Notes: generated by a model from the letters alone, not told the origin. A stretch of DNA of 64,000 nt from GCA_000165345.1 CM000436.1:288001-352000; one strand, 5' to 3'; shown: positions 5,376-57,685, counted from the stretch's first letter. Numbers and translations are program-made.

Positions 5376-5425
5376 TTGTCCACATGCAAATATGCAATGG
5401 CCATGGCGGGCAATTTTTGCCGCCC
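5376..5425. promoter_or_regulatory. promoter motif cluster: TTGTCCACATGCAAATATGCA plus an inverted pair of E2F-like sites (TGGCGGGCAAtttttGCCGCCC)
   Basis: A GC island in AT-rich spacer about 180-220 nt upstream of the 5600 ATG. GGCGGG and CCGCCC half-sites face each other. Confidence 0.5.
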
Positions 5426-5599
5426 GAAATTTATAAGCAAGGTCTAGAGATCTTATTTGACATTCAATGTGTAAAATTGGATGAAATAAGGAGAAAAAAA
5501 GATAATAGTAGGAGAGAAAAAAATAAGGAAATATTAATTGAGCAAATTCTAGTATTATCAAATAAAAAGATTAAGAGAGAGGTATAAAATTGATTAAAA

Positions 5600-6694
5600 A
5601 TGGGGAGAAAAAGTAGTGATGGATCCGGAATGGGAGCGGATATTCTGCATGCATTGGGGTTTAATAAGACCTCAAACTCAGATAATTCTGATACTGCAGA
5701 TAATAAAAGCAAGGGTCAGACAAAATTAGGTAGACTTAAATTTCCTAAGAATAAAAAAAAATCAAAAAAACATAATATTGAGGTGGATTCTGCTAAATTT
5801 AGCACAGAAATTGATTTAAAAGCAAATGACAATAGTGAGATAGAGCAAGCAAGTGAAAAGCCTACAAATTCAAGTTTAATGGATGTTCAATTATCTTTTG
5901 AAGGAGTTCTTACTGAGCTAGAAAAATCTTTGGAAAATATTAAAAAGAATGTAGATCATGCAGAATCTTGTTTGGAGAATATTTATATATCTGTAGATAA
6001 GCTGGAGAAGTTTTCTGAACTTTGTAAAGTGGAAAATAAAGATGTTATATTAGGTTTGCATAAACTAGTAAATGTACACAAAGGAGCAGCATTACTTTCA
6101 ACATTTTCTAGTGACCCTACATTTAAAAAGAATTGCGATTACAACGTAAGTGATGAATCAAAATCTGCTGAAAAAAGGCTTGAAAGCAAAAGATCTGGTG
6201 ATACTAATGTAGTGGAATCTGAGCATGAATCAAATGTTGCAACAGTAATAGAAACTCATAATTCAAATAACTCGGAAACTAAACCAGCTTTTGTTAAATC
6301 AAATTCTAAGACTTATAATGTAAAGAACAGTCTATCAAATAATGTTTTTAATAAGACAGAAATGGTTACACCTAGTAAAAGCAATAATAATTTTAATTCT
6401 GAATCTCCTAGTGCTAAAAGCACTATGAAAAGTGAACCAATTAATAAAGAATTGGAAATAACAAAAGATGTTAATGCTTCATATTCTGACAAAAATAATA
6501 GTGAAAAGTCACCAAAGGAAGGTAAAATTAGTAAAACTGAAAAATTTAAAGAGAAGCTTAACCTCAAAATGAGGAAGAAAAAAGACAGTACACATGAGTC
6601 CAACGATCCAGATTCAGCTGATGCAGAAAATAGTACTGGTATTCAAACCAGAATGGAAAGGTTTAAGAAAAAGTTTGACCGAAAAAGTAAATAA
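5600..6694 (+). CDS. hypothetical Lys/Ser/Glu-rich low-complexity protein
   Basis: A 364-codon ATG-initiated ORF is unlikely by chance in roughly 30% GC DNA. It is highly charged (KKKSKKH, KMRKKKD) and I recognise no domain in it. An inverted pair of E2F-like sites lies at 5404-5425, upstream. Confidence 0.5.
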   Translation: MGRKSSDGSGMGADILHALGFNKTSNSDNSDTADNKSKGQTKLGRLKFPKNKKKSKKHNIEVDSAKFSTEIDLKANDNSEIEQASEKPTNSSLMDVQLSFEGVLTELEKSLENIKKNVDHAESCLENIYISVDKLEKFSELCKVENKDVILGLHKLVNVHKGAALLSTFSSDPTFKKNCDYNVSDESKSAEKRLESKRSGDTNVVESEHESNVATVIETHNSNNSETKPAFVKSNSKTYNVKNSLSNNVFNKTEMVTPSKSNNNFNSESPSAKSTMKSEPINKELEITKDVNASYSDKNNSEKSPKEGKISKTEKFKEKLNLKMRKKKDSTHESNDPDSADAENSTGIQTRMERFKKKFDRKSK

Positions 6695-7051
6695 TTTCTA
6701 CTTTCTTTTCTCCATTATATTTTAATATAATGCATGTAGTCAACAACATGTGGCGCGTGTTTGGCGCTGGCGGGCTACTGTATGTCAAGAAAAAACTGAA
6801 TTTAGTGAATTAAATCTAATTAGGAAATAGCTTGAAACTAAAACGAAGGAGAATAATCTTAATTGAAAAGAATACTGGAATTTAGACAAAAGGTTATAGA
6901 TTTCTTGTATTTTTTTTAGTTTTAACTCCTTTATCTTTAATTTTATAATTTTGTTATTTTCAATTAAGCTTAATAGTTTTTGAGACCATAATTATTATAC
7001 GATAAGTCTATAAGGTTAGAAAAGTATAGAGAGAGCTTGAAAGGTTGGAAA

Positions 7052-10957: not shown

Positions 10958-11653
10958 GATTTTGTTTTAATTTCAAACTACTTAATTTACTTGGATAATT
11001 TTAGATAGATAGAAAAAGAGAGATAATGAAGGAAAAAGAAAAAAAAACAAGAAACAAATCAATTCAATATTAATCGCTATATTACTAGTCCATAGGAATA
11101 ATCTGTCAATTTTACGATTTGTACTCCAATTTTACTTTCTTTCATTATATTATTCATTTAAATATATTATTTCTATAATCTTATTCAACGAATCCTTTTT
11201 TTTATTTTTCTTTCAAATTTGATCTTAATTCATCTTTTTTTTTCCCCTATTGAAATTAACCGATATAATCAATAAATTAAAAAAAAGTTTCCCACATGCG
11301 GCGGGAAAATATTGGCGCCTCATGCCAGATTAATTTATATAATTTTATATAATGGATCATTAAGTTAAATAATAGTGCAGTTAATAATAATAAAAGTTAA
11401 TAATTGTAATATAATAATAATATTAATATTTGAAAAATTAGTATTAAAAATATATTTATATATAAATAAATATACATAAATATATAAACATTTATTTATA
11501 AATATATATTGGAGTTTAGTGGGAAAGAAAAAAGATCAAGTAAATAAGAAGGTTTGTAGAAGATTGTGTGCAAAGAATTTAAGTAATATTAGGATAGTGT
11601 AAATAAGTTTGGATATTATATATAAATATAGAAAAGTAAGTGTTTGGTAGAAA

Positions 11654-13858: not shown

Positions 13859-13962
13859 AAATGTAGTAGAGAATAACAATAATAACAGTGGTAATAGTAA
13901 TAATAATAATAGTAATAATAATAAAAATAATAATTAATTAATTAATTAAACAATTAAAAAAT

Positions 13963-18881: not shown

Positions 18882-18931
<50 letters not shown>

Positions 18932-20199: not shown

Positions 20200-20970
20200 A
20201 TGCATTAATTAGTCATTTTGGTAGACGATATACTGCTACTATTACTACTATTCCTATATCTATTACCTATAATAATTTACTGTCTTTCTTCGAAAAATTC
20301 CCGGCTGCAAACATGCATTTTACCTGCATGCGTTTTTTTCAATGTGGACAAAAAAGGATAATGCTTACGTGTTTTTTTTAGTGGATAAAAAGAGTCTGAT
20401 ACCGGTATGCAAGTGCACACATTTTTTTTTTTTTAACTAATTTCATAATTTTTTTTTTTAAATCGATAATAAAAAATTAGGAATAGCAAATGAATTAATT
20501 GTTTTAATTTTTGTTATTAAGAAGAAATTAAATGGCAATGAGTGAATTAATATTTGTCGAGCAATGTGTTATAGTTATCAGAGATCTCTAAACAAAAATT
20601 CGAGTAATAATGAGGGGTGAAAGTGGATATTCATTATATATAAAGTATATAGGAGATATATATTATAAATATAATTTAAGATATAGTACTCTTCGACCGA
20701 TAATGGCGGGAAGATCTACTGAAGTTATTTAAATATTGCAAATTTGCACCATACCCACAGTGGAAATGAATACAAGGGAATAATTATTTTGAATAGAATT
20801 CGAAAAAACAAGTATAATAATAAAGAAAATAAATCTTGAGTGTAATTCAAGTATAAACAAATATTATTAATAAATAAATATATTTTTATTTATATATATT
20901 TATCTATATACATATTTGCATATATTCGGTGTTTCTGAAATACATTAATATAATTTTAAAAAACAAAAAG

Positions 20971-22533: not shown

Positions 22534-23243
22534 ATATTTTCTTTAAGAGAGATTAAATAAATATTTGCTATTCAAAATACATCATAAAGAAAAATATTTA
22601 AAAGATTAAATATTAATAATAATAATAATAATTTACAATTTAAAAACATTTTCAGATTTAAACCAAATTACTTTGATTAATATTTAATTTAAGTAGTATG
22701 TAAACAATACACATATTATTATTATTATTATTATTATTATCATTATTAATACTCATATGCTTCTTTTTTCTTCAATCTTTTAATTCTGTCTCATTTTTAT
22801 TTGCATTTATTAATAAAGTTGTAAAATTTGGTTTCCACATTAATTTTTTTATATTTATATACCGGTATATTACGTAATACAATAACGGTATTATTTATGT
22901 GGATATTAAATATATTACGTTTAAATTGCATGTACATGTACATGCAAATGCAAATACGTATGAATACATAAATCTAATATTCTGTATATATTTATGGTTG
23001 ATAATTGGCTTAGAAATATACAAAAAATGTAAGAAAAAAAAATTGTATTGACTAAATAGGAAAGAAATTATTTATTTATACAAAGTAAAATCATCAATGC
23101 TAATTTATAAATATTCAAAGAACTTAACTAAACCTTCTTTTTAATAATTCACATTTTATTGCTTACTTTCTTTGTAATATAAAGTGCCAAAATAAAGCTT
23201 TTAATATATTAAATTTGATTCAAATTGGAAATATGGGACGATT

Positions 23244-24632: not shown

Positions 24633-25918
24633 TATTGTAAACAGTTCTTTATATACTAGTGATAATTTTCCAATTTATTTCTAATAATAATTAAAATATT
24701 AATATTAATAATAATACTAATATTAATATTAATATACCCTTGATTAATTTTCTCTTTTTTTATCAACTAGATTATTATAAATTATATATTTATTTTCTTT
24801 AAATCACTATTTCATACAATATTACATCTTACATATTTCATTAATTAATTATATTATTATTTCTTTATTAAATTTTAATATTCGCCGGTACTAAATTAAT
24901 TTGTGGGAGCATTTCCCGCCCAACTCCTCATATTTCTATTATATCTTTTGCATTATAATTTATATATTTTATTAATACTATTTATCCCGCCAAATTCTCA
25001 AAATTGTGCTTGCTTATCAACCAAATGGAAAAATTACTATAAAGAAATAAGGTTAAAGAAACTAGAGTTTACAAAAAAAAGTAAAATACTGAAAGAATAA
25101 ATCCAAACCAGATTTTATTCATAATTTTCTATATATATTCTAGTCATGGAATGAAAGAAAAGGTCGAATTTTTATCTTAATATTCATATTTACTTGTTAT
25201 AATTAACATTTTTCCTTTAATTTATGTAAAATGTGCACATAATTCAATTATTCTGATTTTGCCGCCCAAATATTCTTTAATTTCTGTTGTGTGTATGTTT
25301 TGTTTTCGTGTAATTTGCATGAATGTATAAATAACAAAGGGCGGCAGCATGTAAAATTTTAATAAGATTACTAATTAAAAGCTATAATTATATTAAAAAA
25401 TATCTATAAAGTTAAACATAATGAAAGTAATATAAGATAATTTAATTTTTAAATTAAATATAAATATTATATTTTTTACTTTTTTCGAGAAAATAAAGTT
25501 AATTTTTATACAAAATATTCGAATATTGCAAATAATTTAATAAAATACAAAAATGCATGACTTTGCCGCCTACACCGGTATATAATTTTGAATTAAAAAA
25601 AAAATTACACGTAATATTAAGAGGAAAAGAATAGGATTTTCTCTTTATTGAAATAACGATGACGATTATTAATATTATCATTATTGTTACTATTACTGTT
25701 GTAAGTGTTACTAATATTAATTTAAGAGTTGTTAATTATTATTGATTTCAATGCATTCAATATAAATGCTATCAAATGATAATAATAAGAGTTTTTTATT
25801 AATATTAGTAATAAAGGAAGCTACATTAATAGTATTTTTCACTTTTTTAATAGTTTTTAGTAGGAAAAAAAAAGTTACAATTAGATTTCCTTCTACTTGA
25901 ATATTACTGTTGTTTTAC

Positions 25919-39272: not shown

Positions 39273-39656
39273 TTATTATTATTATTATTATTATTTTCCT
39301 TCAAGTTTTTTTAATTATTAACTTAATTTTTCTTCTTCAATTAAAAAAAAAAACAAGAATAAAAGAAAATCTTTTTTAGTTACTTAAAATATTAATGTTA
39401 TTGTATTTGTTGTCCACATAAAAAATGCATTCGTAATTTTACTTGCAATTTTGCATGCATGTAAAAAATGACGTAATTAGTTATTTAATAAAAGAAATTT
39501 TTGAGTGTGCCGGACCCTCCCGCCAATTCCACTACCAAGTAATAAATCAAATAATAAGAAATTATAACAAATAATTAAAAAAAAAAAGAAAAATGAAAAG
39601 AAAGAAAAGATAGAATGACCCAAGAAATATATATTTAAAAAATAAAATCAAAATTT

Positions 39657-41849
39657 TCAAAAATTAGCTACATTTTGTATAAATGGATGTGAGAAAGCTT
39701 CAAAAATATTAGGCCTATTTGCAGGATCATAAGTCAAAAGCCAGTTAATATATGATTTGCACTCTGAAGAAACATGATTTTCAAATATTGCACCCTTTTC
39801 AGCCTCTAAAGGTATCAATGAAAACGCTTCAGCAATAGAATTACTTCTTAAACCAAATGGCCTTCTTAAATGAAGAATCTCAAAAAATATACAACCAATT
39901 GCCCAAATATCAACTTTGTGAGAAACTATTCTTGGATTATCTAAAGAATCTCCTGGCCTTAATAGAATTTCTGGTGGCTGATACCAAACAGTACCACCTC
40001 CAATTCTCTCAATAATAATATTCCCAGATTCCTGATCAGATTGCTTACTAAGTCCAAAATCAGCAATTTTACAACATCCTCTATGGAGAATAATATTTCC
40101 AGGCTTTAAATCATAATGAATTATTGGATTCCTATTTGGAGTTATTCTATCACCATTTTTATCCAAGTTATTTAAATAAAGAATACCTTCAAGAATTTGT
40201 CTTATCCAAATAATTGCTAATTCTTCAGGAACATTACCATTTGTTTTTATAAATGTATCTAAATCTGGACCATCACACAGTTCCATAATTGTTACAAGCC
40301 TATCATTATCTACTTCAAAACAGTGAAGCATATTGACAATATTTGGATGTTTAAGATCTCTATGTAGCTTAATCTCATTACTTACTCTTTCTACGCAAAC
40401 CATTCTTTCATGTTCTGTCATATCAGGAGTAAGTTCATGAATTTTTGCAGCTGAAATACTCCAGGTATTCATATTTAATACTTCCCAAACCTCGGCAAAT
40501 CCCCCTTTTCCTATCATATTCAATAGAGTATATGCTTGAGAATCAGATAAAGTACTCAAACTGTTGTATCTTGAATTTTGTTGATGTCTAAATAGCCTGG
40601 ATTTTTTAACATATAGACTTCTTTCAATATCCAAGTTCATTCCTGATAATTCTAGTTTTTTTGTAAAATCTAATATATAATCTTGTCTTTTATTTAATAT
40701 AGAATAAGCAGTATTCTCTAAATTAGAATCCTGTTTCTTCCCAATCATTTCAATTCCATTCAAAATTTGATATGGAGTCTGATTTAGGTATCCTTGTAGA
40801 CGATTCTTTAAATTCATTAAATTCTGAAAGTTCAACCCATCTCTATAAATTTCATCATCAATATATCCTAGATTAATATGCGAAGTATAATGATTATTCT
40901 CAGCCATGTTGTTATTATTATCATCATTATTATTATTGTTATTCTTATTATTACTATCATTATTATTATCTGGATTAGTCGAGGCTAGTGTATTATAATG
41001 AACAATTTCACTTGAAGATATCTGGCTTTCTTCAATTTCTGATTTTTGTAACTCCTTCAAAGTATAACACGAATTATTCATGGAGTTTATACTACTTCTT
41101 TTACTTAAAGCCATACTTCCGCTGATTATTGATCCTTTAATATAACTATTTGCATCAAATTCTTTGTTTTCACTCGAATGTTGGGCTCTTTCAGTTATTA
41201 TATCTTGTGATATTCTATTGGAATTATCACTTTTTTCTTGTTCTTTTAAAATGATTTGCCTCTTTTTTTTCAATATATTGGCATTTGCAGCAGGAGCAAG
41301 ACCTACTTGAGATTCTTGCCAAAATAATTGATTTCTATTTAACTCTCTTTCAATCTTCTTAAGCTGAATTACTGATGTTTTAAAGCTATTCTTAATCAGA
41401 GCAAGCTTTCTTGTGAGATTTTGCTCATTGTCCTTTAGATTCTCTTTCATCAAAGTAATCTCATTACATTTCTCCATAATTTCTTCTATACTCTTATTAT
41501 TTCTTTCCATACAATCATAATCAACACAAGCTGAAATATTTTCCTTAATTTTAATAAGTTTTTCTTTCAATTTTACAATATTATCCAATATTCTATGCCT
41601 ATTTTCAGTATTATTAGATAAAGGTATCGCAAAATTTTGATCTCCTATTGACTGTTTTTCTTCATCAAGATGAATAAAAATTCCTCTTTTTTGTTGTATT
41701 CCATTATTGGAAGGGGAATGTAATCTCCCATAAAATGATTTATATCTACTCAAATACTTTGTTGCGAGAACTTGCTCATGCGCAGAAATTCTATCAATTC
41801 GATCTGAACTCAGGTCTAAATTACTTTCATTTCTATTTTCTAAATTCAT
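39657..41849 (-). CDS. TLK: Tousled-like serine/threonine protein kinase (TLK)
   Basis: An N-terminal coiled-coil region is followed by a C-terminal kinase domain with TLK-specific features: GKGGFAEV, IIHYDLKPGNIILHRGCCKIADFGLSK (TLK: IIHYDLKPGNILL...ITDFGLSK), GTVWYQPPE (TLK: GTYWYLPPE) and VDIWAIGCIFFEILHLRRPFG (TLK: [21 protein letters not shown]). Confidence 0.85.
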   Translation of the reverse strand: MNLENRNESNLDLSSDRIDRISAHEQVLATKYLSRYKSFYGRLHSPSNNGIQQKRGIFIHLDEEKQSIGDQNFAIPLSNNTENRHRILDNIVKLKEKLIKIKENISACVDYDCMERNNKSIEEIMEKCNEITLMKENLKDNEQNLTRKLALIKNSFKTSVIQLKKIERELNRNQLFWQESQVGLAPAANANILKKKRQIILKEQEKSDNSNRISQDIITERAQHSSENKEFDANSYIKGSIISGSMALSKRSSINSMNNSCYTLKELQKSEIEESQISSSEIVHYNTLASTNPDNNNDSNNKNNNNNNDDNNNNMAENNHYTSHINLGYIDDEIYRDGLNFQNLMNLKNRLQGYLNQTPYQILNGIEMIGKKQDSNLENTAYSILNKRQDYILDFTKKLELSGMNLDIERSLYVKKSRLFRHQQNSRYNSLSTLSDSQAYTLLNMIGKGGFAEVWEVLNMNTWSISAAKIHELTPDMTEHERMVCVERVSNEIKLHRDLKHPNIVNMLHCFEVDNDRLVTIMELCDGPDLDTFIKTNGNVPEELAIIWIRQILEGILYLNNLDKNGDRITPNRNPIIHYDLKPGNIILHRGCCKIADFGLSKQSDQESGNIIIERIGGGTVWYQPPEILLRPGDSLDNPRIVSHKVDIWAIGCIFFEILHLRRPFGLRSNSIAEAFSLIPLEAEKGAIFENHVSSECKSYINWLLTYDPANRPNIFEAFSHPFIQNVANF

Positions 41850-42022
41850 TTTATTCTAAGCTCAAACCATCATCCAAATTTAAGAATCACTATTTACATT
41901 ACATATTATTTAATTAATTGCAAATTAATAACTTAATTTAACCAATTTTACTAAAATTTCAAATACTACCAATTTTTACCAATATTTCTTAAATTTCTAG
42001 TACTTATATATTTTACATACAT

Positions 42023-42092
42023 ACCGGCATTCTGACAGTGTGGGGAAATGCTAAAACACCGGTACTAACATTTGCAGAAATTTGGCGCCAAA
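42023..42092. promoter_or_regulatory. ACCGGCA / ACCGGTAC / TTTGGCGCCAAA motif cluster in a divergent promoter
   Basis: Lies between TLK (minus, ATG 41849) and POLE (plus, ATG 42306). It is a GC island in an otherwise AT-rich spacer. Confidence 0.55.
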
Positions 42093-42305: not shown

Positions 42306-45300
42306 ATGAAGAGAAGTAAAAGCTACAGGGACAATGGTCGAAAAAAGTTTGAGAGGAAGACCACTGAAAGAAAGAAAGGTAGGTTTGAGTTAGGTGGCTC
42401 TTCCAATATTGATAAAAAGTTTGGAATCAATTTTCAAAAAATTGGAGTAAATCATAGGGAAATTGGTTATTTATACAATGTTCAAGTATCATCAGAATTA
42501 ATATCTGAATCTGGAACAGCATTTGATGGAATGGAAATTGGAACTCTAGAATCTTCATCAGAACTTATTGAATCTTATAAAGAACGTTCATGTCTTAATT
42601 TATATTTTATTAATAAACAAGGAATGACATTTAAAAGTCCATTCTTCTTTAGACCATATTTTTACTTGGAAGCACAAAAAGCTGTTGATATCCATTGGAT
42701 ATTAACCAATCTTGAACATAAATATAGAGATACTACTATAGAATTTACTAATATAATGAAAGAGGATTTAACTCTTGATAATCACTTAATTGGTGAAAAA
42801 AGAGAGGTTATTAAAGCTTCTTTTGATAATGTTAAGGAACTTGTTTCTATTAGAAATGAAATTCTTGATCATATCAAGAGAAATAAGCTTGAAAAAAAAA
42901 AGAATGAAAGTTTAAGTGCTTATTACGATCAGGATCAACAAAACAACTATGAAAATAAAACTCTTGATGTATTGGATTCTATTTCAGAAATTTACGAATA
43001 TGATGTTCAATATGAAGCACGAGTTATGATTGATAACTCCATTTCTATTGGAATGTGGTATGATTCTGTACGTTGGACTCATGAACTTTTGGAATTAAAA
43101 TGTTTAGATCATGATACTTCTGCTCCTGATTTAAGAAGTTTAGCTTGGGATATTGAAACTACTAAAGATCCTTTAAAGTTCCCTAATGTAGAGAAAGACC
43201 AAATTATGATGATTTCTTGTATGTTTGAAGGTCAAGGATACCTAATTACTAATAGAGAAATTGTTTCTGCTGATATATATGATTTTGAATACTCTCCTAA
43301 AAAGGAGTATGAATCATTCTTCAAATGTATTAATTATCCTGATGAAAAAGAACTTATTTGGGGATTTATTAAACTTATTCAGACTTTAAGACCTCATATC
43401 ATTGCTTCTTATAATGGAGATAATTTTGATTTTCCTTTTCTATATGAAAGAGCTAAAAAATATGATATCGATGTTTCCAAAGAATGGGGAATACGAATGG
43501 AAATTGATCATTCCTCTGGAGGAGGATTACAATCTTCTAATAAAACTATCTTTTCTGGAACTAATATTATTCATTTAGATTGTTTTAGATGGGTAGAAAG
43601 AGATTCATATCTTCCTTGTGGTTCTAGAGGTTTAAAAAGTGTTACTAAAGCAAAGTTAAGATATAATCCTGTTGAACTTGATCCTGAATTAATGGTTCCT
43701 TATGCAAAAACAAATCCTCAAGGTCTTGCAGAATATTCTGTTTCAGATGCAGTTGCTACTTATTTTCTTTATAAGACTTATGTTCACAGATTTATATTTG
43801 CTTTAGCTACTATAATTCCTTTATCTGGAGAAGATCTTCTTAGAAAAGGGTCTGGTACTCTTTGTGAACATTTATTAATGAAAGAAGCTTTTACTAAGAA
43901 TATTTTATTTCCAAACAAAAAAGTTCAAGAAACTATGGAATTTTATCAAAATAGACCCATCTTAAATAGTACTTATGTTGGAGGTACTGTAGAATCTTTA
44001 TGTAGTGGAGTATTTAGAGCTGATATTCCTGAAAAATTCTGTTTAAATACCGATACCCTTAAACATTTAATTAAAATATTAGATACTACTTTGAATTTTG
44101 GTATTAAAGATTCTGGTACTACAATTGATAATATTGAAAATTATGAACAAGTCAGAAATGAAATTCTTGAAAAATTGCAAAGTTTATTAGAATCTCCCAG
44201 AATTAAAATTGAGCCTTTAATATATCATCTTGATGTTGCTGCTATGTATCCTAATATTATTCTAACTAATAGATTACAACCAACAGCAGTAATAGAAGAG
44301 ACAACTTGTATGAAATGTCCATTCAATTCTGAGTCAAAACTTTGCCAAAGAAGGATGAATTGGAGATGGAAAGGAGATGTTTTTCCAATTTCCAAAGGAG
44401 AGATGGAGAGAATGATTAATCATATCCAAATTGAGACTTTTGAAAATGTTAAGAATGAAATAGGAGCAGTTAACAAGAAAAAGAAATTTGAAGATCATGA
44501 AAGTGATTCAGAAAATGATGATAAGATGGAATTTACTGGAGAAAATGTTAATATTAATAATAAAGAAAAGATTAAATGGTCATCTTTAACTCCTAGACAA
44601 CAATCCGAGATTTTAATACAAAGAATGAAAGCTTATTGTAATAAGATATATAGAAAACAAACTGAGAATATTGAAGAGACAAGATCTTCAATAGTTTGTC
44701 AAAGAGAAAATCCTTTTTATATAGATACAGTTAGACGTTTTAGAGATAGAAGATATGTTTATAAAGGTAAGAAAAAAGAAGCAGAAGAAAAGTTAAAGAG
44801 AGCTGAATTATTAGGAGATTTATTAGCAGTACAGGAAGCACAGAATGAAGAGCTTTTATATGAATCTTTACAATTAGCTCATAAATGTATTTTAAATTCT
44901 TTTTATGGCTATGTTATGAGAAAAGGGAGTAGATGGTTTTCTATGGAAATGGCTGCTATTGTTACATGGGTAGGTGGTAATGTGATTAGAGAAGCAAGAT
45001 CTTTAATGGAAGGTATCGGTAGACCTTTAGAATTAGATACCGATGGGATTTGGGCAATACTTCCAAAAGGATTTCCAGAGGAAATCACTTTTAGATTAAA
45101 GGATGGTGGTAAGAAGAAGATTCATTATATTTGTACTTTGTTAAATCAACAAGTTCACAAAAGTTGGACAAATGATCAATATTTGGAATATGATGCAGAT
45201 CTTGGGAAATATAATATTAAAGTAGAGAATTCAATATATTTTGAAGTGGATGGTCCATATAAATGTTTCTTTATTCCAGCTTCTGATAAACAGAATAAGC

Positions 45301-48300
45301 TTTTAAAGAAGAGATATGCAGTTTTTGATTTTGAAAATAGGCTTAAAGAACTTAAAGGGTTTGAATTAAAGAGAAGAGGAGAGCTTCAATTGATAAAAAT
45401 TCTTCAGGAGGAGTTATTTCCAGCATTTTTAAAAGGTAATTCAAAGAAAGAAGCATATGATCATGTAGCTGCAATATCAAAGAAATGGTTAAGTTTGATA
45501 GATACTAAAGGAAGAGGTATTTTAGATGATGAACAATTATTCTTTTTGATTTCAGAGTCAAAGAATATGTCAAAGAGTGTACAACAGATGGGGAATGCTA
45601 AGTCAATGTCAATTACAACAGCAAAGAGACTTTTTGAATTTCTTCAGAATCCTTCATATATTCAGGATAAGAATATTGTTTGTAAGTTTATTGTTTCAGA
45701 GTTCCCTAAAGGAGAAGATAAAAGTCAAAGAGCAGTTCCTCTTTCTATTTTTTCAACACCTTTAGAGACAAGAGTTTCATGGCTTTCTAAATGGCTGAGA
45801 ATAAGTAAATCTGGTGGAAGGAGAGAAAAGGATGAGTTGGTGGAGCACAGGAGGAAAGCAGATGTAGATATAACGAGTGGCAGTGGTGGTGGCAGTGGTA
45901 TTCTTAATAAAGAGAATGAGAATAACAAATGGAATGTTCGTAACATTCTGGACTGGGAGTACTATAAGAACAGGCTTACAAACACTATTTTAAAGATAGT
46001 TATAATTCCTGCAATTAACCAGGGGGTTCCAAATCCTCTTCCAGAATTAGAGGTACCGAGTTGGGTAAGATACCATTCAGAGATAGTTGGTACAAATCAA
46101 CAAAAGATTTCAGAGTACTTTAATGTTGTTAAGAAGGAGGAGAAAAAGAAGAGCAGTTTCTCTGAACTTCCTAATTATAATTCTATTATTCAAGGCCGAA
46201 GTCAAGATCATGGTCAAACTCAAGATCAGGGTCAAACTCAAGATCAGGGCCAAATTCAAGATCAGGGTGTAATTCAAGACCAGGGCCAAAATCGAAATCA
46301 AAACTTAACTTTAGGTCAAGGCCAAATTCAAGATCAGGGTCAAACTCAAGATCAGGGTCAAACTCAAGATCATGGCCAAATTCAAGATCATAGCCAAATT
46401 CAAGATCATGGCCAAACTCAAGATCAGGGTCAAACTCAAGATCAGGGTCAAATTCAAGATCAGGGTCAAATTCAAGATCATGGCCAAACTCAGGCTTGTA
46501 AAATTGTAGAAACCAGAAATAACAACAGTATTTCAAAATTGAATGGAAAACTGACAAAAAAAGAGAGGATTGAATTATTCAAGGAAAAAGGATTTAAATC
46601 CTGGTTAGAGTACCATAAGAAATTTTGGTTGGAGAATTTTCATGCATTTAATGAAAAACAGTCAGAACTTGAAAAGAAGCTAAAAAATATTGATATAGAA
46701 AAACTTGAATATTTTGGAAAAGGTAATACTGCAAAAGGTATCGAATTTTTATCTGAATATATTTTCTTAACGAAAGGAAGATTTCATATTTTAGATATAT
46801 ATCCTCTTAGTATCCAACAAAGGAATATTAAAAGAAATTATGATGAAGATCTACTGGGATTTTATAATGTTGTTATGTACTCTGAAGAAACAGGAGATTG
46901 TTTTACTGTTACATTTGAGTTCCTTAGACGTTTTTATATTGCTACAAATGTTCAAATTCAAATTATGGATAATGATGATGATGGTGAATTTATTACAAAA
47001 TCTATAGCTACAGGGAAAGAGTTACCTAGAGGGGTACCGTATAATCATTTAACAGAAGTAATAATTTCAGAGAGAAGATTTCAGAAATCAAAATCAACAT
47101 TGATTTGTGATAATAATACTGTTGGTATTTATGAGACAAATTTACCACTTGAATTTTCTATTTTAGAAAAATTTGGGAATATCATAGAAAGTAATACTCC
47201 TAATGTTGAGAAATTACTTCTTAAGAATGGAGCAATTACTGATAAATTTTGGAATTCTGCTGGTGGATTAAAAGAGAAGAATTTGAATTATGGAGATATA
47301 ATACATTGGTTATTTCTTTCAATATGTACTTTTGAAGAAAGAAAATGTTTCTCTTTAACAGATTTAAGTAAGAAAAGAATTTACTTCTTTCTTGGATTAG
47401 GACCAACTATTTCTAATAATATTCTTAAATCTGAGCTTCATAGACAAATTCAACAAGATCAAAGATTGGAAAAGATTACTGAAATTCATGTTAATTATTT
47501 TAAGACAACAAAAGATTGTTTAGAAGAATTGGATCGACTTTTGAAAGATTTAATCCAAGAATTTCCAAAAGAACCTATAGTTCTTTTAATACAATCAATG
47601 GTTAGATTAGAAGAACTTAAAACACATAATAGTGAATTAAATCTTTATAAAACTATATTAAGAGAATATATTTCTGAAATGGAACATAATAAGAAAGTTA
47701 TTGAAACTAAAATAGTAACATTATGGGAAGAAATAATAGATTTTGATTCAAGTAATTCAATATTTAGTAGATTTGATTGGCATAAAGATTCGATTAGATA
47801 TTCATTAAAAGCTTTAAAAGAAGCAATTAATAAACTTCAGCTATCATTAGAACTTTCTAAAGCTTTAAGACTTCCAGTATTATATTTACTTCAATTTAAA
47901 AAAAACTTAACAAACTTTTTATATGATATAATATATTCCAGAGAACTTCATTCTATGGGATTATTAAGCTGGGGATCTTTAAGATCCACTCCAGATCTTG
48001 GGAATCCTAAGTTAATCCAACTTTCAAAAAGTGATTGGGATCTTAGAAGACTTGGATATTTAATGCCAACAAAAGATCTTAATAACTCTAAAGGAGGAAG
48101 AGTAGGTGGAGGACATAGTAATTGTAATACTAATAGCTTAGATGAATTGGATGTATTGGAAGTAGTAAGACCAGGAATCTATAGAAACTATGGGGTTCAA
48201 TTGGATTTCAAGCAATGGCTAATAATTGAATCTGTAAGAAATTGTAGGTTACTCTCTGATAAGTACAACTTGGATGACTTTGAACAAGGAGAGAAACGTA

Positions 48301-50492
48301 TTCTTGGAGCTGATTGTAAGAAAAAGAATTCTGAAAAAGATGATAAGAATAAAGATGTTTTGATCTATAATCTAGGTAGTAGAAAGCATTTGAGTAATCC
48401 AAATAATAAACAAGGCTTATTGATTTCTCAGCCTTTATATAACCATTCATCATTATCCACAAGCTCAGCTTTTCTATGTTTAGAGAAAACTATCAATAGA
48501 ATGAGATCAGTAATTGAAAACCATGAAAAAGTGGAGTCTATCTTTAGAATATACAATGCTCAAAAAACTTGTGAGAATGAACAATTTGATCAAATGAATG
48601 ACAATATTCTTGGTAAAGAAGAAGAGAAAGGGGGGAGAGAAGATAGGAAAAGGAGGAGAGAAGAAGAGGAGAAAGGGGAGGAAGAGGAAGGGGAGGAAGA
48701 GGAGGGGGAGGAAGAGGAAGAAGAAGAAGAAACTTCAAGCTTACTTTTTGAGTTTATGGTAACTCTCCAGGAAAGATTCTACTCTTGGTTATCTTCTTCC
48801 AACTCTCTCTTGTATGACCCAGCTTTAATAGAGATGACAAAAGATTATGCTCATTGGTATTTTAAATCTCTTGAATCTGATATGAGAGAAATGGGAATCC
48901 AAGTAGTATATGGAAATATTAGAAAAATGATCTTAACATTTAATTTGGATGAATTGAAGAATAATAGTATTAGGAATAATAGTGATCTCCAAAATCAGTT
49001 TTCTAAACTTATGCAAATATTAAATAACAGAGAACTATATTCTGGTATTTCTTTAGATCCTACTGTAGAGTATAAGGCTATGATTCAAATTGACAGAACA
49101 AATTATATTAGAAGAACCTTGGGAGGAGGAGGATCTGGAAGTTTGGAAGATCCATATGAAATGAATCTAAGTTTATTGAACTACTTTCCAATAAATTCTA
49201 GAAAATACATTGTTGGCGAGATTTCTAACTTTTTGATGGAGCCTCTTAGAGAATTGAGAAACTACTTCAAGAAGAATTCCAATTTATCTCTTAAGGAATC
49301 TTTGCAAATATTGGGAGACATAGTTTTGGAACAATTTGGACCTTTTAGTGAGAATTTTCAAAACTTTTTGCAGGCTATTTCCAATCCAAATACATATATT
49401 GTAAGTAAATATGGAATTCAACAGTTTGATGATCCACTAAATGATATTGGATGGAATGATGATATAATAGGGGAAGGAGAGGAAGTGAAGGAAAAGAGGA
49501 AGATTATTGAAGAGGAGGAAGAGGAGGAGGAGGAAGAAGAAGAAGAAGAAGGAAAAAGAAGGAAGAAAAAGAATGCAAACTCAATATTAGAAGAAAACGA
49601 CGATACCCTATTACTAAAGAGGAATCTAGAAAATCTAGACATTAATAATAATAGAGATGATATTCCTTTTGCTATATACCCAAATTCAATAAAGAAAAAA
49701 GGAAATAGCCATTCATTAAGGATTGAAGCTTCAACAAAAAGAATGGAAGAAAAAGGAATAAGAAAAAGAAGAAATTTCAAAGACTTATTTGAATTCCCTC
49801 CATGTATTGGAAAAGCTTATAATGGAAATAAACCCTCATTAAGCTTGGAATTAATAAAATTATTTATTTATATTTGGGGATTGGATAAATCCTTTTCAAT
49901 AGATGAATCTAAACAGAAACAATATGAACAAATAATTTTTATGGTTTGCCAAGCTGTGGATATTTCAGAGTTTAATCCAATAGTTACAGAGAAATGGACT
50001 AGTCCTTTAATTCCTTATATAATCAAAGACTTTTCTTGTCCAAATTGTTTTGAAATAGAAGATTTTGACTTTACTGGGAATGCAATACAAGATGAAGATG
50101 ATCTTGGATTATCAAGTAATAATTACAATAATATAATTAGACCAAGGTTTACTTGGTATTGTAGTCATTGTAACTTTTCTATTGATAATGAAATTTTAGA
50201 AGAAAAGCTACTTCTTGAATTCTTTGAAAGATTGGAAGTTATTCAATCACAAGATATTCTCTGTTCAAGATGTAACTCCGTTCAAATAGGTTACATGCAA
50301 AAGCATTGCGATGAATGTATGGGAGAATTAACAACAAGACTTGGAAATCATAAAACTTTCCATAATTTCTTTACTCTATTCAACTCGGTTGCTCAATATT
50401 ATTCTGATCTAAATAATGAAGAAGATGAAAATCCACAATTCCAAGGCCTTATTGAATTTAAAAATATGTATGATAATATTTTATACATTTAA
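42306..50492 (+). CDS. POLE: DNA polymerase epsilon catalytic subunit A
   Basis: The 2728-aa ORF has exonuclease motifs ([19 protein letters not shown]), polymerase motif A ([18 protein letters not shown]), motif B ([24 protein letters not shown]) and the C-terminal Cys modules CPNCF...CSHCNF...CSRCN...CDEC. Low-complexity insertions are present. Confidence 0.95.
   Translation: [2728 protein letters not shown]
46197..46494 (+). repeat. about 16 tandem 18-nt repeats (caagatcagggtcaaact and variants) encoding QDQGQ[TI]
   Basis: Direct reading gives [97 protein letters not shown] inside POLE. The antisense artefact ORFs 46110-46301 and 46186-46557 are periodic. Confidence 0.9.
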
Positions 50493-50831
50493 ATTATGAA
50501 TTTCATAGATAACTAGTTAAAAAAAAAGAAATAGAACGGAATTATTTGTTATATATAACTTACTATAATCTAAATCTATCCTTAAACTACCTATTCTGAC
50601 TTTGTTTTCAATTCGAAGATAAAAACAAATATATAAAAAAACAATTTAATGCATGTGGGTTTGGCGGGCCATTGCGTGTATGAACCTGCATGTAGTGGCG
50701 GTAACATCTTTGCCTAACATTTTCTTTCTCCCATATGATAATAGTAACAATAATAATAATAATAATAATAATATTGATAATATAATTCTCTTTATCTACT
50801 TAGTGTTAGTCTTGTCTTGATTTTTGATAGC

Positions 50832-54284: not shown

Positions 54285-54592
54285 TATTTATTTAACTTTC
54301 TGGGTATTAAGTGTTAATAACCCATACAGTAGAGGATTATCTTTGCTCCTAATAGTATTTAATTATTCTCCCCAAATAAAATAAAGAAAGAAATGTAGAG
54401 AAAATATTCTCCTTAATTAATTTAACCATACAGTTTATTAACTAGGTTGTTGCTATTATTGTTAAATTTTTTTTATTAATTAATTTTAATATTCTTTTTT
54501 GATTAATTTTCTATTTTCCCCTCTTTCTAATATGCATTTACTATTATTTCAATTATTATTATTCCCACATTAAAGTAATAAATAAATTGCCC

Positions 54593-54606
54593 AATAGGCG
54601 GGAATT
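54593..54606. promoter_or_regulatory. AATAGGCGGGAATT E2F-like site in the Sec24 / 55210-gene divergent promoter
   Basis: Further motifs in the same spacer are ATACCGGTG at 55008-55016 and TTTTTTTTCAATGTGGAAGG at 55040-55059. Confidence 0.45.
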
Positions 54607-55209
54607 CTTATTTAAATTATTTAGTGGGGAAAATTAATTTAAAAAAAAATGAAAAAAATGCTTTCGTTTATTCATTCTTAAATATTAAAAAAAAAATTAT
54701 AATATATATAAGTTTCTATAATGAAATTGATGGATAATTGTTCTTTGATTTTGTGATTAATAAAATCTGATAATAAATAGAAAGTATTATTGAACTTAAA
54801 TATTAAAATTTTATATTATTTTCTTTCAATGTTTTGCTGTTATAAATAGATTTGTTTCTAGTAAAATATATTTATATAAAGGAAAATTATTTACTATTAA
54901 AGAAAGATCTACCTGAATTTTTAAAATAATTTCTAATTAAAAAAAAAAATTTTTATTCACAATATTTATTGGTAGCAAATATGTGGGGAAATGTTTCTAG
55001 TGTCCTATACCGGTGTTTGTTGGCATTGCATACGTGTATTTTTTTTTTCAATGTGGAAGGGGAACTTAGGTGTAAAGGCAATGCAAAAAAAAAATAAAAA
55101 TAATATTATAGAGTAAGCAGAGAATAGTTATAAATTTTAAGTATTTTTTTTTTTTCTAATAAATAATTAATAAGGTAATTAACAAAATAAAATTAGTAAT
55201 TAGATTAAA

Positions 55210-57363
55210 ATGCTAGATGGGAAAATCAAGAAGCCTGCTCATCAAAAATTACATGAAACAGTTGGAAAACATAACAGTTACATGAAAAATGTTGTATATG
55301 GTGACGAAAATATAACTGAATTAAATAAAATGGAATATCCAAGAAACACACTTTTGAGAAATAATGGATTACCAGAAAAACTTGAAAAGCATTTAAACAA
55401 TGAAAAAGAAAGAGAATTAGAATCATTATATGAAGAAAATCGACAATTATTAATGGAAATTTCAAAACTACGTAAAACAAATCAATTGTTAGTCAAAGAT
55501 GTAAATAAGAAAAATGAAATTATTGATAGTCTTGATTCAAGTCTTGTTGAAGTTGAAGAAAAACTGGAAAATGCAAAAAAGAAGAATTGGAATATGTATA
55601 ATGAAATTTTGAATAGAGAAAGAAAGAATCAACAACAAAATAATACCAGAGAACATAATACAGATTCAAATAATTCTGATGATGAAACTTATGAGCTTAA
55701 GGCCTCTAAAATTGGAACTTTTAATACAGTAAATATAATAAAATCTAATAATAAAAAAGATTTAACTAGCAATAGACCAAAGTCTACAAGTATCTCTACT
55801 TCAACAGAAAATACCAAATGGCTACAAGACATGATTTTAGAATCTTTAAGTGAAAAACATGTGGAAAAGAAAGCATATGATAATTTAAAATATGAAGTTG
55901 AGAAGCTTCAGAAAGAAATTTATTCAATGCAAACTGACTTATTGAAAAGTAATATACATGATGAAGTCATTCAAGAACCAATTGTTGATCATTCTAATGG
56001 AAAGTTATCAGTCTTCCATTCCACTAGCTCTTCAACCAATAATTCTTCAAGCATTATTGGAACATCTGTCAGCGGCTTTAATACCATCAATAATACTTTC
56101 CAATCTACTTCTCTCGCTCAAGAACTAAAGGAGGTCAACAATACTACAACTAATAGCTCCTTTGACTCTTCACAGAAATCTGAAGAAATTCAACAAGAAT
56201 CTGAAAAGGAAAATGAACAAGAAAATGTTGAATCTATTCCTCCAAGAAGTGTTCACATATTAATGGGTAAGACTTTCTCTAGAGACAATAACATTGACAA
56301 AAAAATCAACAAATACAAAAATGGTCCTAGATATAATATTCAGAAATCTGATAATGACAATTTTATTCATCCAACTTCTAATTATTACAGATCTGATATT
56401 CAAACATTCCAAACTCAAATTAATCAACAACCAAGTATAGCTACTAACGGAAATAACTATTATTACTACTCATACTCTAATTTGAATAATAAACATCAAA
56501 ATTACAACAACCTTGATCTAAAGAACTATTCTCATATCTATAATACTAATTACACTAATCCGTTTTTAAGTGTATCTACGAATGATAATTATAATAATAT
56601 GAATAGGCCTTTACAAGCATTCCAAAACAATAACTATTCTATTTATAACTCAATTAGAAGACCCATAAACCTTGCTGAATATAGAGCTAATTATAAAAAC
56701 CAACCGCATATGGACAACTTAGTAAATCACCATCCCCTAATGACTAACTCCATGTTAGATTCAGGCTTAAACCCTCAAAACTTAAAACAAGGATTTATAC
56801 AACATCAATACTCTAAAATTAATTTTCCAGAATCAAATTTAAACTCAATTCCAAGTTTAAATCCATTCTATACACAAACTATTAACTTAAATAATTATTC
56901 AAATTTACCATTTCCACCATTTCAAGTCAAAATTACACAAATATTCAGGAGAAATAGAAACAATTCTGTTCCTCCTCCAAGACCTAAAAATGAATTAAAT
57001 TCTGAAAAAGTTGTTAATGAAGAAAATCATCCAGTATCTAACAAAATTGATCTACCCGATTCTAATAATGATTCAGATAAAGATCTCCCACAGGGATATA
57101 TTCGTTTCAAAACTTCTATTTCTTCTCCATTGAGCCAGGATGATTTCTTTTCCCCAATCTCAGGAAATGTTAATAATATCTGTCCTTGCGATAAAGCCAT
57201 TGATTCATGCGCAGCCATATCAAAAAAGCTAATTCAAAATAACTATGAGAAGAAAAACAAGATGAGATCATCGTCAACATCTCTTCCACTCCCGATTCCT
57301 TTAATCGCAAAAAATAACCAATTTCAGGGAACATCTGGTCTACTCAAGTTTAGTAAATACTAG
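55210..57363 (+). CDS. hypothetical protein: N-terminal coiled coil, long Asn/Ser/Tyr-rich low-complexity remainder
   Basis: A 717-codon ATG ORF. Heptad-like segments are present (EKLEKHLNNEKERELESLYEENRQLLMEISKLRKTNQLLVKD, KKAYDNLKYEVEKLQKEIYSMQTDLLK). I recognise no catalytic motif. Confidence 0.5.
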   Translation: MLDGKIKKPAHQKLHETVGKHNSYMKNVVYGDENITELNKMEYPRNTLLRNNGLPEKLEKHLNNEKERELESLYEENRQLLMEISKLRKTNQLLVKDVNKKNEIIDSLDSSLVEVEEKLENAKKKNWNMYNEILNRERKNQQQNNTREHNTDSNNSDDETYELKASKIGTFNTVNIIKSNNKKDLTSNRPKSTSISTSTENTKWLQDMILESLSEKHVEKKAYDNLKYEVEKLQKEIYSMQTDLLKSNIHDEVIQEPIVDHSNGKLSVFHSTSSSTNNSSSIIGTSVSGFNTINNTFQSTSLAQELKEVNNTTTNSSFDSSQKSEEIQQESEKENEQENVESIPPRSVHILMGKTFSRDNNIDKKINKYKNGPRYNIQKSDNDNFIHPTSNYYRSDIQTFQTQINQQPSIATNGNNYYYYSYSNLNNKHQNYNNLDLKNYSHIYNTNYTNPFLSVSTNDNYNNMNRPLQAFQNNNYSIYNSIRRPINLAEYRANYKNQPHMDNLVNHHPLMTNSMLDSGLNPQNLKQGFIQHQYSKINFPESNLNSIPSLNPFYTQTINLNNYSNLPFPPFQVKITQIFRRNRNNSVPPPRPKNELNSEKVVNEENHPVSNKIDLPDSNNDSDKDLPQGYIRFKTSISSPLSQDDFFSPISGNVNNICPCDKAIDSCAAISKKLIQNNYEKKNKMRSSSTSLPLPIPLIAKNNQFQGTSGLLKFSKY

Positions 57364-57685
57364 ACATCTACTCTCATTGTATCCTAGCGTGACTCAACAT
57401 ACGACTCCCCTTCCCATATCCATCTTATAACTATCTATTTACTGCTAGTCAAATCTACAATCTAAAAGCAACATACAGTATAAAAACCTTAATTAATACA
57501 CAATTATTATTCGTTGTTTTTTAATATAAAATTCATACTCCTAAAAATTCTCCTGTAGAGCTCAACATGAACCCTTCTGTCCATTATACTACCTACAAAT
57601 TATTAACCGCCACATTTTCGAAAGCGCCAAATCGCATGCATTTTCATGTGGACAATTCAATACCGGTATTTATTTAGCTGGTTTT

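What the first reader, a model, noticed from the sequence alone, without database searches (positions are those of the whole stretch)
5376..57659. Recurrent intergenic element CATGTGGACA(A) / TTTTTTTCAATGTGGA not explained by the known E2F or G-box motifs
The 9-10-mer ATGTGGACA occurs at 5376-5390 (as TTGTCCACATGCAAA, minus orientation), 20342-20353 (TTTTTTTCAATGTGGACAAAAAAGG), 39410-39419 (TTGTCCACAT, minus) and 57645-57659 (TCATGTGGACAATTC). A near-copy of its extended form, TTTTTTTTCAATGTGGAAGG, lies at 55040-55059. A related CCCACATGCGGCGGG lies at 11291-11305. All copies are intergenic, within 100 nt of E2F/GCATGC sites. For a 10-mer with 50% GC in roughly 25-30% GC DNA, 4-5 copies in about 12 kb of spacer is far above expectation. 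It may be a distinct transcription-factor site (it contains a CACATG / E-box-like core fused to GGACA).
Basis: seen in the sequence. Interest (0 to 1): 0.6.

Follow-up and report, generated by a model that had tools for sequence, protein, structure and literature searches.

The report
Conserved ATGTGGA promoter box in Cryptosporidium
A short DNA word, (A)TGTGGA(C/T)AA, recurs between genes of the parasite Cryptosporidium parvum, is kept unchanged at the same places in four related species, and sits mostly next to genes switched on in female stages, so it is very probably a real but still unassigned gene-control site rather than chance.

Summary
The window is Cryptosporidium parvum chromosome 8, cgd8_1070 to cgd8_1270. 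ATGTGGACA occurs four times against 0.42 expected, and every copy is non-coding. Among GC-rich 9-mers with at least four non-coding copies, only E2F, the G-box, ATACCGGTA and this word appear.

It is not a dispersed repeat, because the flanks are unrelated.

At all four sites, and at the near-copy upstream of cgd8_1260, the core TGTGGA is invariant in orthologous spacers of C. meleagridis, C. ubiquitum, C. canis and C. felis. One felis site is missing and one reads TGTGGC. The core is among the very few invariant blocks in those spacers. It is absent from the unalignable spacers of C. xiaoi and C. serpentis.

The word fits an "unknown motif", A[T/A]G[T/A]GGA.A, reported once upstream of Class II oocyst-wall genes (Oberstaller 2013). 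It is missing from current motif catalogues.

The three most female-biased genes in the window each carry it upstream in sense orientation: cgd8_1160, cgd8_1220 and cgd8_1260. Two further modules just outside the window flank genes with no such label.

Most likely it is a transcription-factor site inside composite modules (TGCAT, a T-tract, ATGTGGA, ATACCGGTAT, an ACGT core). The binding factor is unknown. The E-box reading is not supported.

The parts
5376..5386 (-). Site 1, TTGCATGTGGACAA. The box overlaps a TGCATG (AP2_1-type) site. It lies 215 nt upstream of cgd8_1090 in antisense orientation and 160 nt downstream of cgd8_1080.
   Evidence: TCCACATGCA is the longest invariant run in the four-species spacer alignment A1.
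20341..20351 (+). Site 2, TTTTTTTCAATGTGGACAA. It lies 143 nt after the cgd8_1150 stop and 626 nt upstream of the cgd8_1160 ATG (20968), in sense orientation.
   Evidence: ATGTGG is invariant in parvum, meleagridis, ubiquitum and felis. Canis has ACATGTGGAAAGG. cgd8_1160 is labelled female-specific, log2FC 7.06.
39410..39420 (-). Site 3, TTTTTTATGTGGACAA. It lies about 140 nt upstream of the cgd8_1220 ATG (39272) in sense orientation, and 238 nt after the cgd8_1230 stop.
   Evidence: ATGTGGA is the only invariant run of 6 or more columns in alignment A3. cgd8_1220 is labelled female-specific, log2FC 6.24, and belongs to the 72-h-only cluster 44.
57645..57655 (+). Site 4, GCATGCATTTTCATGTGGACAATTCAATACCGGTAT. 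It sits in the convergent spacer between cgd8_1260 and cgd8_1270 (clathrin heavy chain), 31 nt from the clathrin stop codon.
   Evidence: Conserved in ubiquitum and canis; absent from the 159-bp felis spacer.
55050..55060 (+). Near-copy AATGTGGAAGG after a T10 tract, 159 nt upstream of the cgd8_1260 ATG in sense orientation.
   Evidence: TGTGGAAG is invariant in four species. cgd8_1260 is labelled female-specific, log2FC 3.08.
22834..22903 (.). Inverted pair TCCACAT ... ATGTGGA. The pair flanks TATACCGGTATATTACGTAATACAATAACGGTAT in the convergent spacer between cgd8_1160 and cgd8_1170.
   Evidence: TATACCGGTATA is invariant in parvum, ubiquitum and canis. Canis carries an exact CAATGTGGACAAT 8 nt upstream of it, and ubiquitum keeps TGTGGAA. 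The element is not found in felis.
20399..20408 (.). Partner palindrome ATACCGGTAT, 57 nt from site 2.
   Evidence: ATACCGGTnTGCAAGT is conserved in meleagridis, ubiquitum and canis.
55007..55016 (.). Partner palindrome ATACCGGTGT, 35 nt from the near-copy.
   Evidence: TATACCGGTGTTT is invariant in four species.
57660..57669 (.). Partner palindrome ATACCGGTAT, 5 nt after site 4.
   Evidence: Ubiquitum has AATACCAGTAT.
20325..20331 (.). TGCATGC (AP2_1-type site), followed by a T-tract leading into site 2.
   Evidence: The same order, TGCAT then T-run then ATGTGGA, is seen at sites 2, 3, 4 and the near-copy.
57634..57640 (.). GCATGCA (AP2_1-type site) preceded by the E2F-type GCGCCAAA (57625-57632), just upstream of site 4.
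39452..39461 (.). TGCATGCATG (AP2_1-type site) and the neighbouring TGACGTAA (39469-39476), both conserved, upstream of site 3.

Best explanation
(A)TGTGGA(C/T)RR, usually preceded by a T-tract, is a sequence-specific protein-binding site in double-stranded DNA. In other words, it is a cis-regulatory element of Cryptosporidium spacers.

It does not act alone. It sits in compact composite modules with a TGCAT/GCATGC site (bound by AP2_1-type ApiAP2 factors), often an E2F site, the palindrome ATACCGGTAT and an ACGT-core element.

These modules lie preferentially beside genes that are up-regulated in female stages (macrogamonts). In this window those genes are cgd8_1160, cgd8_1220 and cgd8_1260. 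In the literature the same consensus lies upstream of Class II oocyst-wall genes.

What is shown: recurrence above chance, restriction to non-coding DNA, invariance at orthologous positions within the parvum-to-felis clade, co-occurrence with ACCGGT and TGCAT, and adjacency to female-biased genes.

What is inferred: that a transcription factor binds it, and that it contributes to female-stage activation. The factor is unknown.

The copies in convergent spacers most likely mark 3'-end promoters of antisense or non-coding transcripts, or downstream enhancers of the same female genes. That part is inferred only.
For: Recurrence:
- 4 copies against 0.42 expected.
- With a look-elsewhere correction, only known motifs, ATACCGGTA and this word reach 4 copies among GC-rich non-coding 9-mers. 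Simulated sequence does so in 7 of 300 runs.
- ATGTGGA is 3-6 times denser in non-coding than coding DNA in parvum, ubiquitum, meleagridis, felis and canis. These regions are syntenic, so the counts are not independent.

Phylogenetic footprints:
- In four-species spacer alignments with only 12-33% invariant columns, the motif is one of 1-4 invariant runs of 6 or more columns.
- Over 19 orthologous instances TGTGG is 19/19, the following A is 18/19 and the preceding A is 18/19.
- Site turnover occurs within a conserved module: canis has an exact ATGTGGACAAT beside the invariant TATACCGGTATA.

Prior report: the consensus A[T/A]G[T/A]GGA.A is an unknown motif upstream of Class II COWP genes, together with AP2_1-like and E2F motifs (PMC3734150).

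Expression:
- S3 File of PMC11078545 (Tandel female-versus-asexual data) labels cgd8_1160 (+7.06), cgd8_1220 (+6.24) and cgd8_1260 (+3.08) as female-specific. Each has the box upstream in sense orientation.
- cgd8_1220 is in a cluster that peaks only at 72 h.
- Five of the six spacers flanking these three genes carry a module, against 1 of the 14 other spacers (hypergeometric P = 0.002, post hoc).

Co-occurrence with ACCGGT: 5 of 10 non-coding copies lie within 70 nt of one (P = 7e-5).
Against: - No binding or reporter data exist, and no transcription start sites were available.
- Genome-wide enrichment could not be computed.
- The female link rests on a handful of genes and was noticed post hoc.
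- In a small prospective test I examined 9.7 kb beyond the window. Two more ATGTGGAT + ACCGGT + TTACGTG modules were found next to cgd8_1290/1300 and cgd8_1310/1320. None of these genes appears among the stage-specific genes of the same table.
- cgd8_1090, downstream of site 1, is also unlabelled.
- Site 2 is 626 nt from the cgd8_1160 ATG, which is far for this genome.
- Site 4 has no downstream protein-coding gene.
- The motif is absent from the orthologous spacers of C. xiaoi and C. serpentis.
Confidence: 0.7

Rival explanations
1. It is a weak or variant G-box (published G-box-like motif 2 is DTGTGGGG). It would be read by the G-box-binding ApiAP2 proteins cgd8_810 (female-specific), cgd2_2990 or cgd1_3520, not by a separate factor.
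For: It shares (A)TGTGG with motif 2, DTGTGGGG. cgd8_810 is female-specific and binds G.GGGG. True G-boxes such as ATGTGGGGAA lie in the same spacers, for example 54981 upstream of cgd8_1260. The near-copy TGTGGAAGGGGAA abuts a G-run.
Against: The G-box is defined by four G's. Here the position after TGTGG is A in 18 of 19 orthologous instances and never G, and the next position is C, T or A and never G. A degenerate G-box should drift towards GGGG in some lineage. Where a true G-box and the box coexist, both are conserved as different words. Oberstaller 2013 judged the A[T/A]G[T/A]GGA.A motif unrelated to any of their motif families, the G-box included.
Confidence: 0.13
2. It is only the 3' extension of an AP2_1-type site. 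That would be TGCATGTG, the macrogamont motif TGCATG(T/C)(G/A) of Hasan 2024, or the ACATGY motif 7 of Oberstaller 2013. The binding factor would be cgd2_3490 or AP2-F.
For: Site 1 reads TGCATGTGGAC in all four species, and canis site 3 reads GCATGTGGAT. TGCATGYR is enriched in 65 macrogamont genes. Both AP2_1 binders named are female-specific.
Against: At sites 2 and 3 and at the near-copy the box is separated from TGCAT by a T-tract of 4-10 bases and is preceded by AA, TA or CA, yet TGTGGA remains invariant. The invariant block is TGTGGA, not GCATG.
Confidence: 0.07
3. It acts in RNA, as a UTR element (AUGUGGACAA) in the 3' UTRs of the upstream genes or the 5' UTRs of the downstream genes. 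One example would be a role in the translational repression known in female stages.
For: Three of the four exact copies are in sense orientation 143-283 nt downstream of a stop codon (cgd8_1150, cgd8_1230, cgd8_1260). Two of those genes are female-biased, at +2.49 and +3.08. Translational repression in macrogamonts is documented.
Against: Site 1 is antisense to both of its neighbours. The pair at 22834/22897 is inverted. The near-copy lies in a divergent promoter, so no 3' UTR is possible there. The tight linkage to palindromic DNA sites (GCATGC, ACCGGT) and the position and orientation turnover in canis fit DNA recognition better. If transcribed in a 5' UTR, the box would introduce an upstream AUG.
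Confidence: 0.07
4. Chance recurrence or a dispersed repeat or mobile-element remnant.
Against: The shuffle and look-elsewhere tests argue against chance. The flanks are no more alike than random AT-rich DNA. Conservation at orthologous positions in otherwise diverged spacers argues against both.
Confidence: 0.02

Closest known systems
Unknown motif 5'-A[T/A]G[T/A]GGA.A-3' upstream of Class II Cryptosporidium oocyst wall protein genes (Oberstaller, Joseph & Kissinger 2013, BMC Genomics 14:516; PMC3734150)
   Same: All four exact copies (ATGTGGACA) and the ubiquitum and canis variants (ATGTGGATA) fit the consensus. The company is the same: AP2_1-like and E2F motifs. The biology is also the same: genes peaking late or in female stages.
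   Different: That report rests on MEME analysis of four or five promoters. It gives no conservation data and no factor, and the motif did not enter later catalogues (2025 review Table 3). I could not inspect the COWP promoters themselves. The near-copy ATGTGGAAG misses the last consensus position.
[quoted passage not shown]
   Same: It shares TGTGG, lies in the same spacers, and one of its binders is female-specific.
   Different: The defining GGGG is replaced by GGA(C/T/A), and this is conserved as such in 18 of 19 orthologous instances.
AP2_1 motif TGCATGCA and the macrogamont motif TGCATG(T/C)(G/A) (Hasan et al. 2024, PMC11078545)
   Same: Adjacent to or overlapping the box at every site. 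The TGCATGTG variant is literally the overlap seen at site 1. Both are linked to female genes.
   Different: The box is conserved where no GCATG abuts it. It is not palindromic.
Plasmodium female-specific ten-base element TGTRNNYACA, bound by PFG/FD2 with AP2-FG (PMC10945693)
   Same: It is a female-stage cis element that starts with TGTR. TGTGGACA has TGT..ACA arms. PFG homologues are reported to be widespread in Apicomplexa.
   Different: The arm spacing is two bases shorter. The ACA arm is not conserved in orthologues. No Cryptosporidium PFG homologue was examined. This is a lead from the literature, not a tested relationship.

Membership tests
Oberstaller 2013 unknown Class II COWP motif (A[T/A]G[T/A]GGA.A) | Sequence fits the 9-base consensus | tested here: met
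   ATGTGGACA (four copies) and the orthologous ATGTGGATA fit. The near-copy ATGTGGAAG fails the last position.
Oberstaller 2013 unknown Class II COWP motif (A[T/A]G[T/A]GGA.A) | Lies upstream of genes rising late (48-72 h) or in female stages, together with AP2_1-like and E2F motifs | tested here: met
   cgd8_1160, cgd8_1220 and cgd8_1260 are labelled female-specific. cgd8_1220 is in the 72-h-only cluster 44. TGCAT lies within 7-24 nt of every copy. cgd8_1090 is not labelled.
Oberstaller 2013 unknown Class II COWP motif (A[T/A]G[T/A]GGA.A) | Present in the Class II COWP promoters themselves | not testable with these tools
   COWP loci could not be fetched, because look-ups are restricted to proteins of this window and their homologues.
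G-box (G[T/C/A]GGGG) | Run of four G after the variable base | tested here: not met
   The sequence is GGA(C/T/A) in 18 of 19 orthologous instances and never GGG.
AP2_1 site (TGCATGCA) | GCATG(C) core within the element | tested here: not met
   A GCATG core is present only at site 1 and at canis site 3. At sites 2 and 3 and at the near-copy, TGTGGA is conserved without it.
E-box (CANNTG, bHLH-type) | Conserved CANNTG hexamer | tested here: not met
   CATGTG is present at only two of the four parvum copies. The required C is found in 9 of 19 instances.
E2F site (TTTSSCGC / WSGCGCSW) | GCGC core | tested here: not met
   There is no GCGC in the element. E2F sites are separate neighbours.
Plasmodium female element TGTRNNYACA | Ten-base palindrome-like word with YACA at positions 7-10 | tested here: not met
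   TGTGGACAAN matches TGTR and positions 7-8 but not position 9. The distal half is variable among orthologues.
Dispersed repeat or mobile element | Similarity extending into the flanks of the copies | tested here: not met
   Ungapped flank identity is 0.23-0.43 against 0.32 expected.
Structured or known non-coding RNA gene | Match to an Rfam family or a tRNA | tested here: not met
   There are no Rfam matches at gathering score and no tRNAs in the window.
CENH3-associated (holocentromere) sites of C. parvum | GA-rich repeat motif | tested here: not met
   The published motifs are GA-rich repeats, and the box is not.

The most novel reading that the evidence does not exclude
The ATGTGGA box, the ATACCGGTAT palindrome and an ACGT-core site may form one composite module read by a still unidentified, possibly non-AP2, factor. 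One candidate is a Cryptosporidium counterpart of the Plasmodium female factor PFG/FD2. The module would bracket female-specific transcription units at both their 5' and 3' ends, as it does for cgd8_1160 and cgd8_1260. It would thereby set female-stage expression, or 3'-end antisense transcription, in a genome for which no female commitment factor is known.
Probability: 0.12. Interest if true: 0.75.

Novelty: new member of a known kind. Interest (0 to 1): 0.5.

Why it matters
Cryptosporidium has very few assigned cis elements: E2F, the G-box, TGCATGCA, CACACA, GAGA and a CAAT-like motif. Many over-represented motifs are not bound by any tested AP2 domain.

A 2026 review states that no trigger of female commitment has been identified. 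A short word that is conserved across five species and sits beside strongly female-biased genes gives a concrete bait. It could be used for DNA-affinity purification or one-hybrid screens, and it offers a concrete mutation to test in existing female reporter strains.

It would also refine the macrogamont motif TGCATG(T/C)(G/A). That motif may partly be a composite of an AP2 site and this box.

The value is incremental. The motif was glimpsed in 2013, and the kind of object, a transcription-factor site, is ordinary.

Tried and rejected
- Rfam (gathering threshold) and tRNA scans of the window found nothing. No known RNA gene explains the convergent-spacer copies.
- A homologue search with cgd8_1160, meant to find paralogues or distant orthologues, returned only low-complexity noise.
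- C. xiaoi and C. serpentis spacers contain no TGTGG[AC] and cannot be aligned. The depth of conservation beyond the parvum-to-felis clade is therefore unresolved.
- The lncRNA paper's supplements do not use cgd IDs. An antisense transcript opposite clathrin could not be confirmed.
- The ATAC-seq and polycistron preprint, the Campbell 2010 and Oberstaller 2014 PBM papers, Mullapudi 2007 and Tandel 2023 contain no TGTGG/GTGGA motif text. The 2014 supplements are not held.
- The holocentromere CENH3 motif is GA-rich and unrelated.
- The E-box reading was rejected from the position frequencies.
- The Plasmodium TGTRNNYACA element was rejected as a match on spacing.
- The prospective test in the extra 9.7 kb did not confirm the female link.

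Full report
**Origin of the window.** Ten ORF translations match Cryptosporidium parvum proteins exactly. Gene identities were fixed from supplementary tables:
- cgd8_1080 is Sec1.
- cgd8_1110 is the KDEL receptor.
- cgd8_1170 is the amino-acid permease.
- cgd8_1180 is coronin.
- cgd8_1220 is the Thr-repeat / alpha-beta-hydrolase protein.
- cgd8_1230 is a kinase.
- cgd8_1260 is the ORF at 55210-57363.
- The genes at 42306-50492 and 57686-63709 are DNA polymerase epsilon and clathrin heavy chain.
- cgd8_1090 (5600-6694) and cgd8_1160 (ATG at 20968, with a signal peptide) are assigned by position.

**The observation.** ATGTGGACA occurs four times against 0.42 expected.
- All four copies read ATGTGGACAA. 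They are the only TGTGGAC or GTGGACA words in 64 kb, and all are non-coding.
- The 7-mer ATGTGGA has 10 of its 17 copies in the non-coding quarter of the window.
It did so in 7 of 300 runs.
- In the real sequence the 9-mers that reach four copies collapse to E2F, the G-box, ATACCGGTA and ATGTGGACA(A). The word keeps company with bona fide motifs.
- The flanks of the four copies are no more alike than random AT-rich DNA. A dispersed repeat is therefore excluded.

**Conservation.** I fetched syntenic loci using the KDEL receptor, DNA polymerase epsilon and the permease as anchors. The species were C. meleagridis, C. ubiquitum, C. felis, C. canis, C. xiaoi and C. serpentis. The spacers are only 12-33% invariant across four species, yet the box survives:
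- Site 1: TCCACATGCA is the longest invariant run.
- Site 2: ATGTGG is invariant.
- Site 3: ATGTGGA is the only invariant run of 6 or more columns.
- Near-copy upstream of cgd8_1260: TGTGGAAG is invariant.
- Site 4: conserved in ubiquitum and canis, but absent from the very short felis spacer.

Over 19 orthologous instances the profile is T-tract, K, H, A, TGTGGA, C/a/t, R, R. TGTGG is present in 19 of 19. The following A is present in 18 of 19 and is never G. In C. xiaoi and C. serpentis the spacers cannot be aligned and hold no TGTGG[AC].

**Context.**
- Each box is preceded by TGCAT or GCATGC, usually through a T-tract.
- Half of the non-coding ATGTGGA copies lie within 70 nt of the palindrome ACCGGT, against a 5% expectation (P = 7e-5).
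- That palindrome, ATACCGGTAT, has 7 copies with at most one mismatch against 0.54 expected. It is itself invariant in several alignments.
- ACGT-core words (TTACGTG, TGACGTAA) accompany most ACCGGT sites.
- In the convergent spacer between cgd8_1160 and cgd8_1170, TATACCGGTATA is invariant. The ATGTGGA partner changes place and orientation between species; canis has an exact CAATGTGGACAAT. This behaviour is typical of binding-site turnover inside a conserved regulatory module.

**Literature.**
- Oberstaller et al. 2013 list 25 motifs, none of which is this word. In their analysis of oocyst-wall genes, however, they report an unknown motif, A[T/A]G[T/A]GGA.A. It lies upstream of Class II COWP genes, next to AP2_1-like, E2F and CCAAT-like motifs. 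ATGTGGACA fits it exactly.
- The 2025 review's motif table omits it, and no ApiAP2 is assigned to it.
- Hasan et al. 2024 found TGCATG(T/C)(G/A) enriched in 65 macrogamont genes. Site 1 (TGCATGTGGAC) shows how that motif could partly be a composite with this box.

**Expression.** The stage-specificity sheet of Hasan et al. uses the Tandel female-versus-asexual data.
- It labels cgd8_1160 (+7.06), cgd8_1220 (+6.24), cgd8_1260 (+3.08), cgd8_1230 (+2.49) and cgd8_1080 (+1.27) as female-specific.
- It labels coronin as asexual-specific. The other window genes are not listed.
- The three strongest female genes each have the box upstream in sense orientation. Two of them, cgd8_1160 and cgd8_1260, also have a box-plus-ACCGGT module at their 3' ends.
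- All five female-labelled genes adjoin a box-bearing spacer. Post hoc, this is unlikely by chance (P about 0.002).

I then made a small prospective test. The 9.7 kb beyond the window holds two more ATGTGGAT + ACCGGT + TTACGTG modules. Their neighbours, cgd8_1290 to cgd8_1320, are not among the stage-specific genes. They fall in the "Unresolved" part of the table, which was cut from the stored file. The female link is therefore suggestive, not established.

**Interpretation.**
- The best-supported reading is a transcription-factor binding site acting within composite modules, with a preference for female-stage genes.
- It is not a canonical G-box, because GGA is conserved rather than GGGG. It is not merely an AP2_1 extension, because it is conserved without an adjoining GCATG. 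It is not an E-box, because the C is variable.
- An RNA-level role is less likely. Orientations are mixed, and the box is tied to palindromic DNA sites.
- The Plasmodium female element TGTRNNYACA resembles it only loosely.
- The copies in convergent spacers are unexplained in detail. E2F and GCATGC sites are known upstream of antisense lncRNAs that start at gene 3' ends, which makes a 3'-end promoter the simplest guess.

**Verdict.** This is a real, conserved cis element that has been reported once and never characterised. It is a new member of a known kind of feature and of moderate interest.

Noticed in passing
window 20399-20408, 22859-22868, 22882-22891, 25572-25581, 42021-42030, 55007-55016, 57660-57669: The palindrome ATACCGGTAT has 7 copies with at most one mismatch against 0.54 expected, and all are non-coding. 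It is invariant in orthologous spacers: TATACCGGTGTTT in four species, TATACCGGTATA in three, and ATACCGGTnTGCAAGT. It is absent from every published Cryptosporidium motif list I could read. By these measures it is as strong a candidate site as the ATGTGGA box.
   Followed up: partly
window 20365, 22870, 25609, 39469-39476, 42098, 55031; L012 402, 461, 6797, 6902: ACGT-core words (TTACGTG, TTACGTAA, TGACGTAA) lie within about 40 nt of 5 of the 6 ACCGGT sites. The one upstream of cgd8_1220 is conserved, and in C. felis it is a perfect TGACGTCA. This suggests a bZIP-type site that partners with the palindrome.
   Followed up: partly
window 20555-20930: The long spacer upstream of cgd8_1160 contains unusually conserved blocks in parvum, meleagridis, ubiquitum and canis. 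Examples are AGATCTCTAAACAAAAATTCGAGTAATAATGAGGGGTGAAAGTGGA, TTCGAnCGATAnTGGCGGGA and TTCGGTGTTnCTGA. There is no Rfam match. The region could be a long 5' UTR, an unannotated exon or an RNA.
   Followed up: partly
window 36425-39272 (-): cgd8_1220 appears here as two overlapping ORFs (36425-38815 and 38787-39272). Public models of the protein range from 694 to 925 aa. This points to a frameshift or intron, or to length variation in the Thr-repeat between assemblies.
   Followed up: no
window 46220-46470 (+): An 18-nt unit, TCAAGATCAGGGTCAAAC-like, is repeated about eight times inside the DNA polymerase epsilon gene. The C. parvum protein is 2728 aa, against 2560-2612 aa in the other species.
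   Followed up: no
window 5216-5599, 20580-20600, 20800-20815, 54905-54915: AGATCT-containing words recur in conserved positions of several spacers: AGATCTTATTTGACAT, AGAGATCTCTAAAC and GGGAAGATCTAC. They may correspond to the 'unknown set 1' motifs (GAYCTMD) of Oberstaller 2013.
   Followed up: no
L012 400-490 and 6797-6902 (C. parvum chr 8, just right of the window): Two further composite modules (TTACGTG, ATACCGGT, ATGTGGAT) lie in the divergent spacers cgd8_1310/1320 and cgd8_1290/1300. None of the neighbouring genes is labelled stage-specific in the table consulted.
   Followed up: partly
window 3170-5215 and 39657-41849: cgd8_1080 and cgd8_1230 are the genes whose 3' ends abut sites 1 and 3. 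They fall in the same expression cluster (69) of Oberstaller 2013, and both are mildly female-biased.
   Followed up: no
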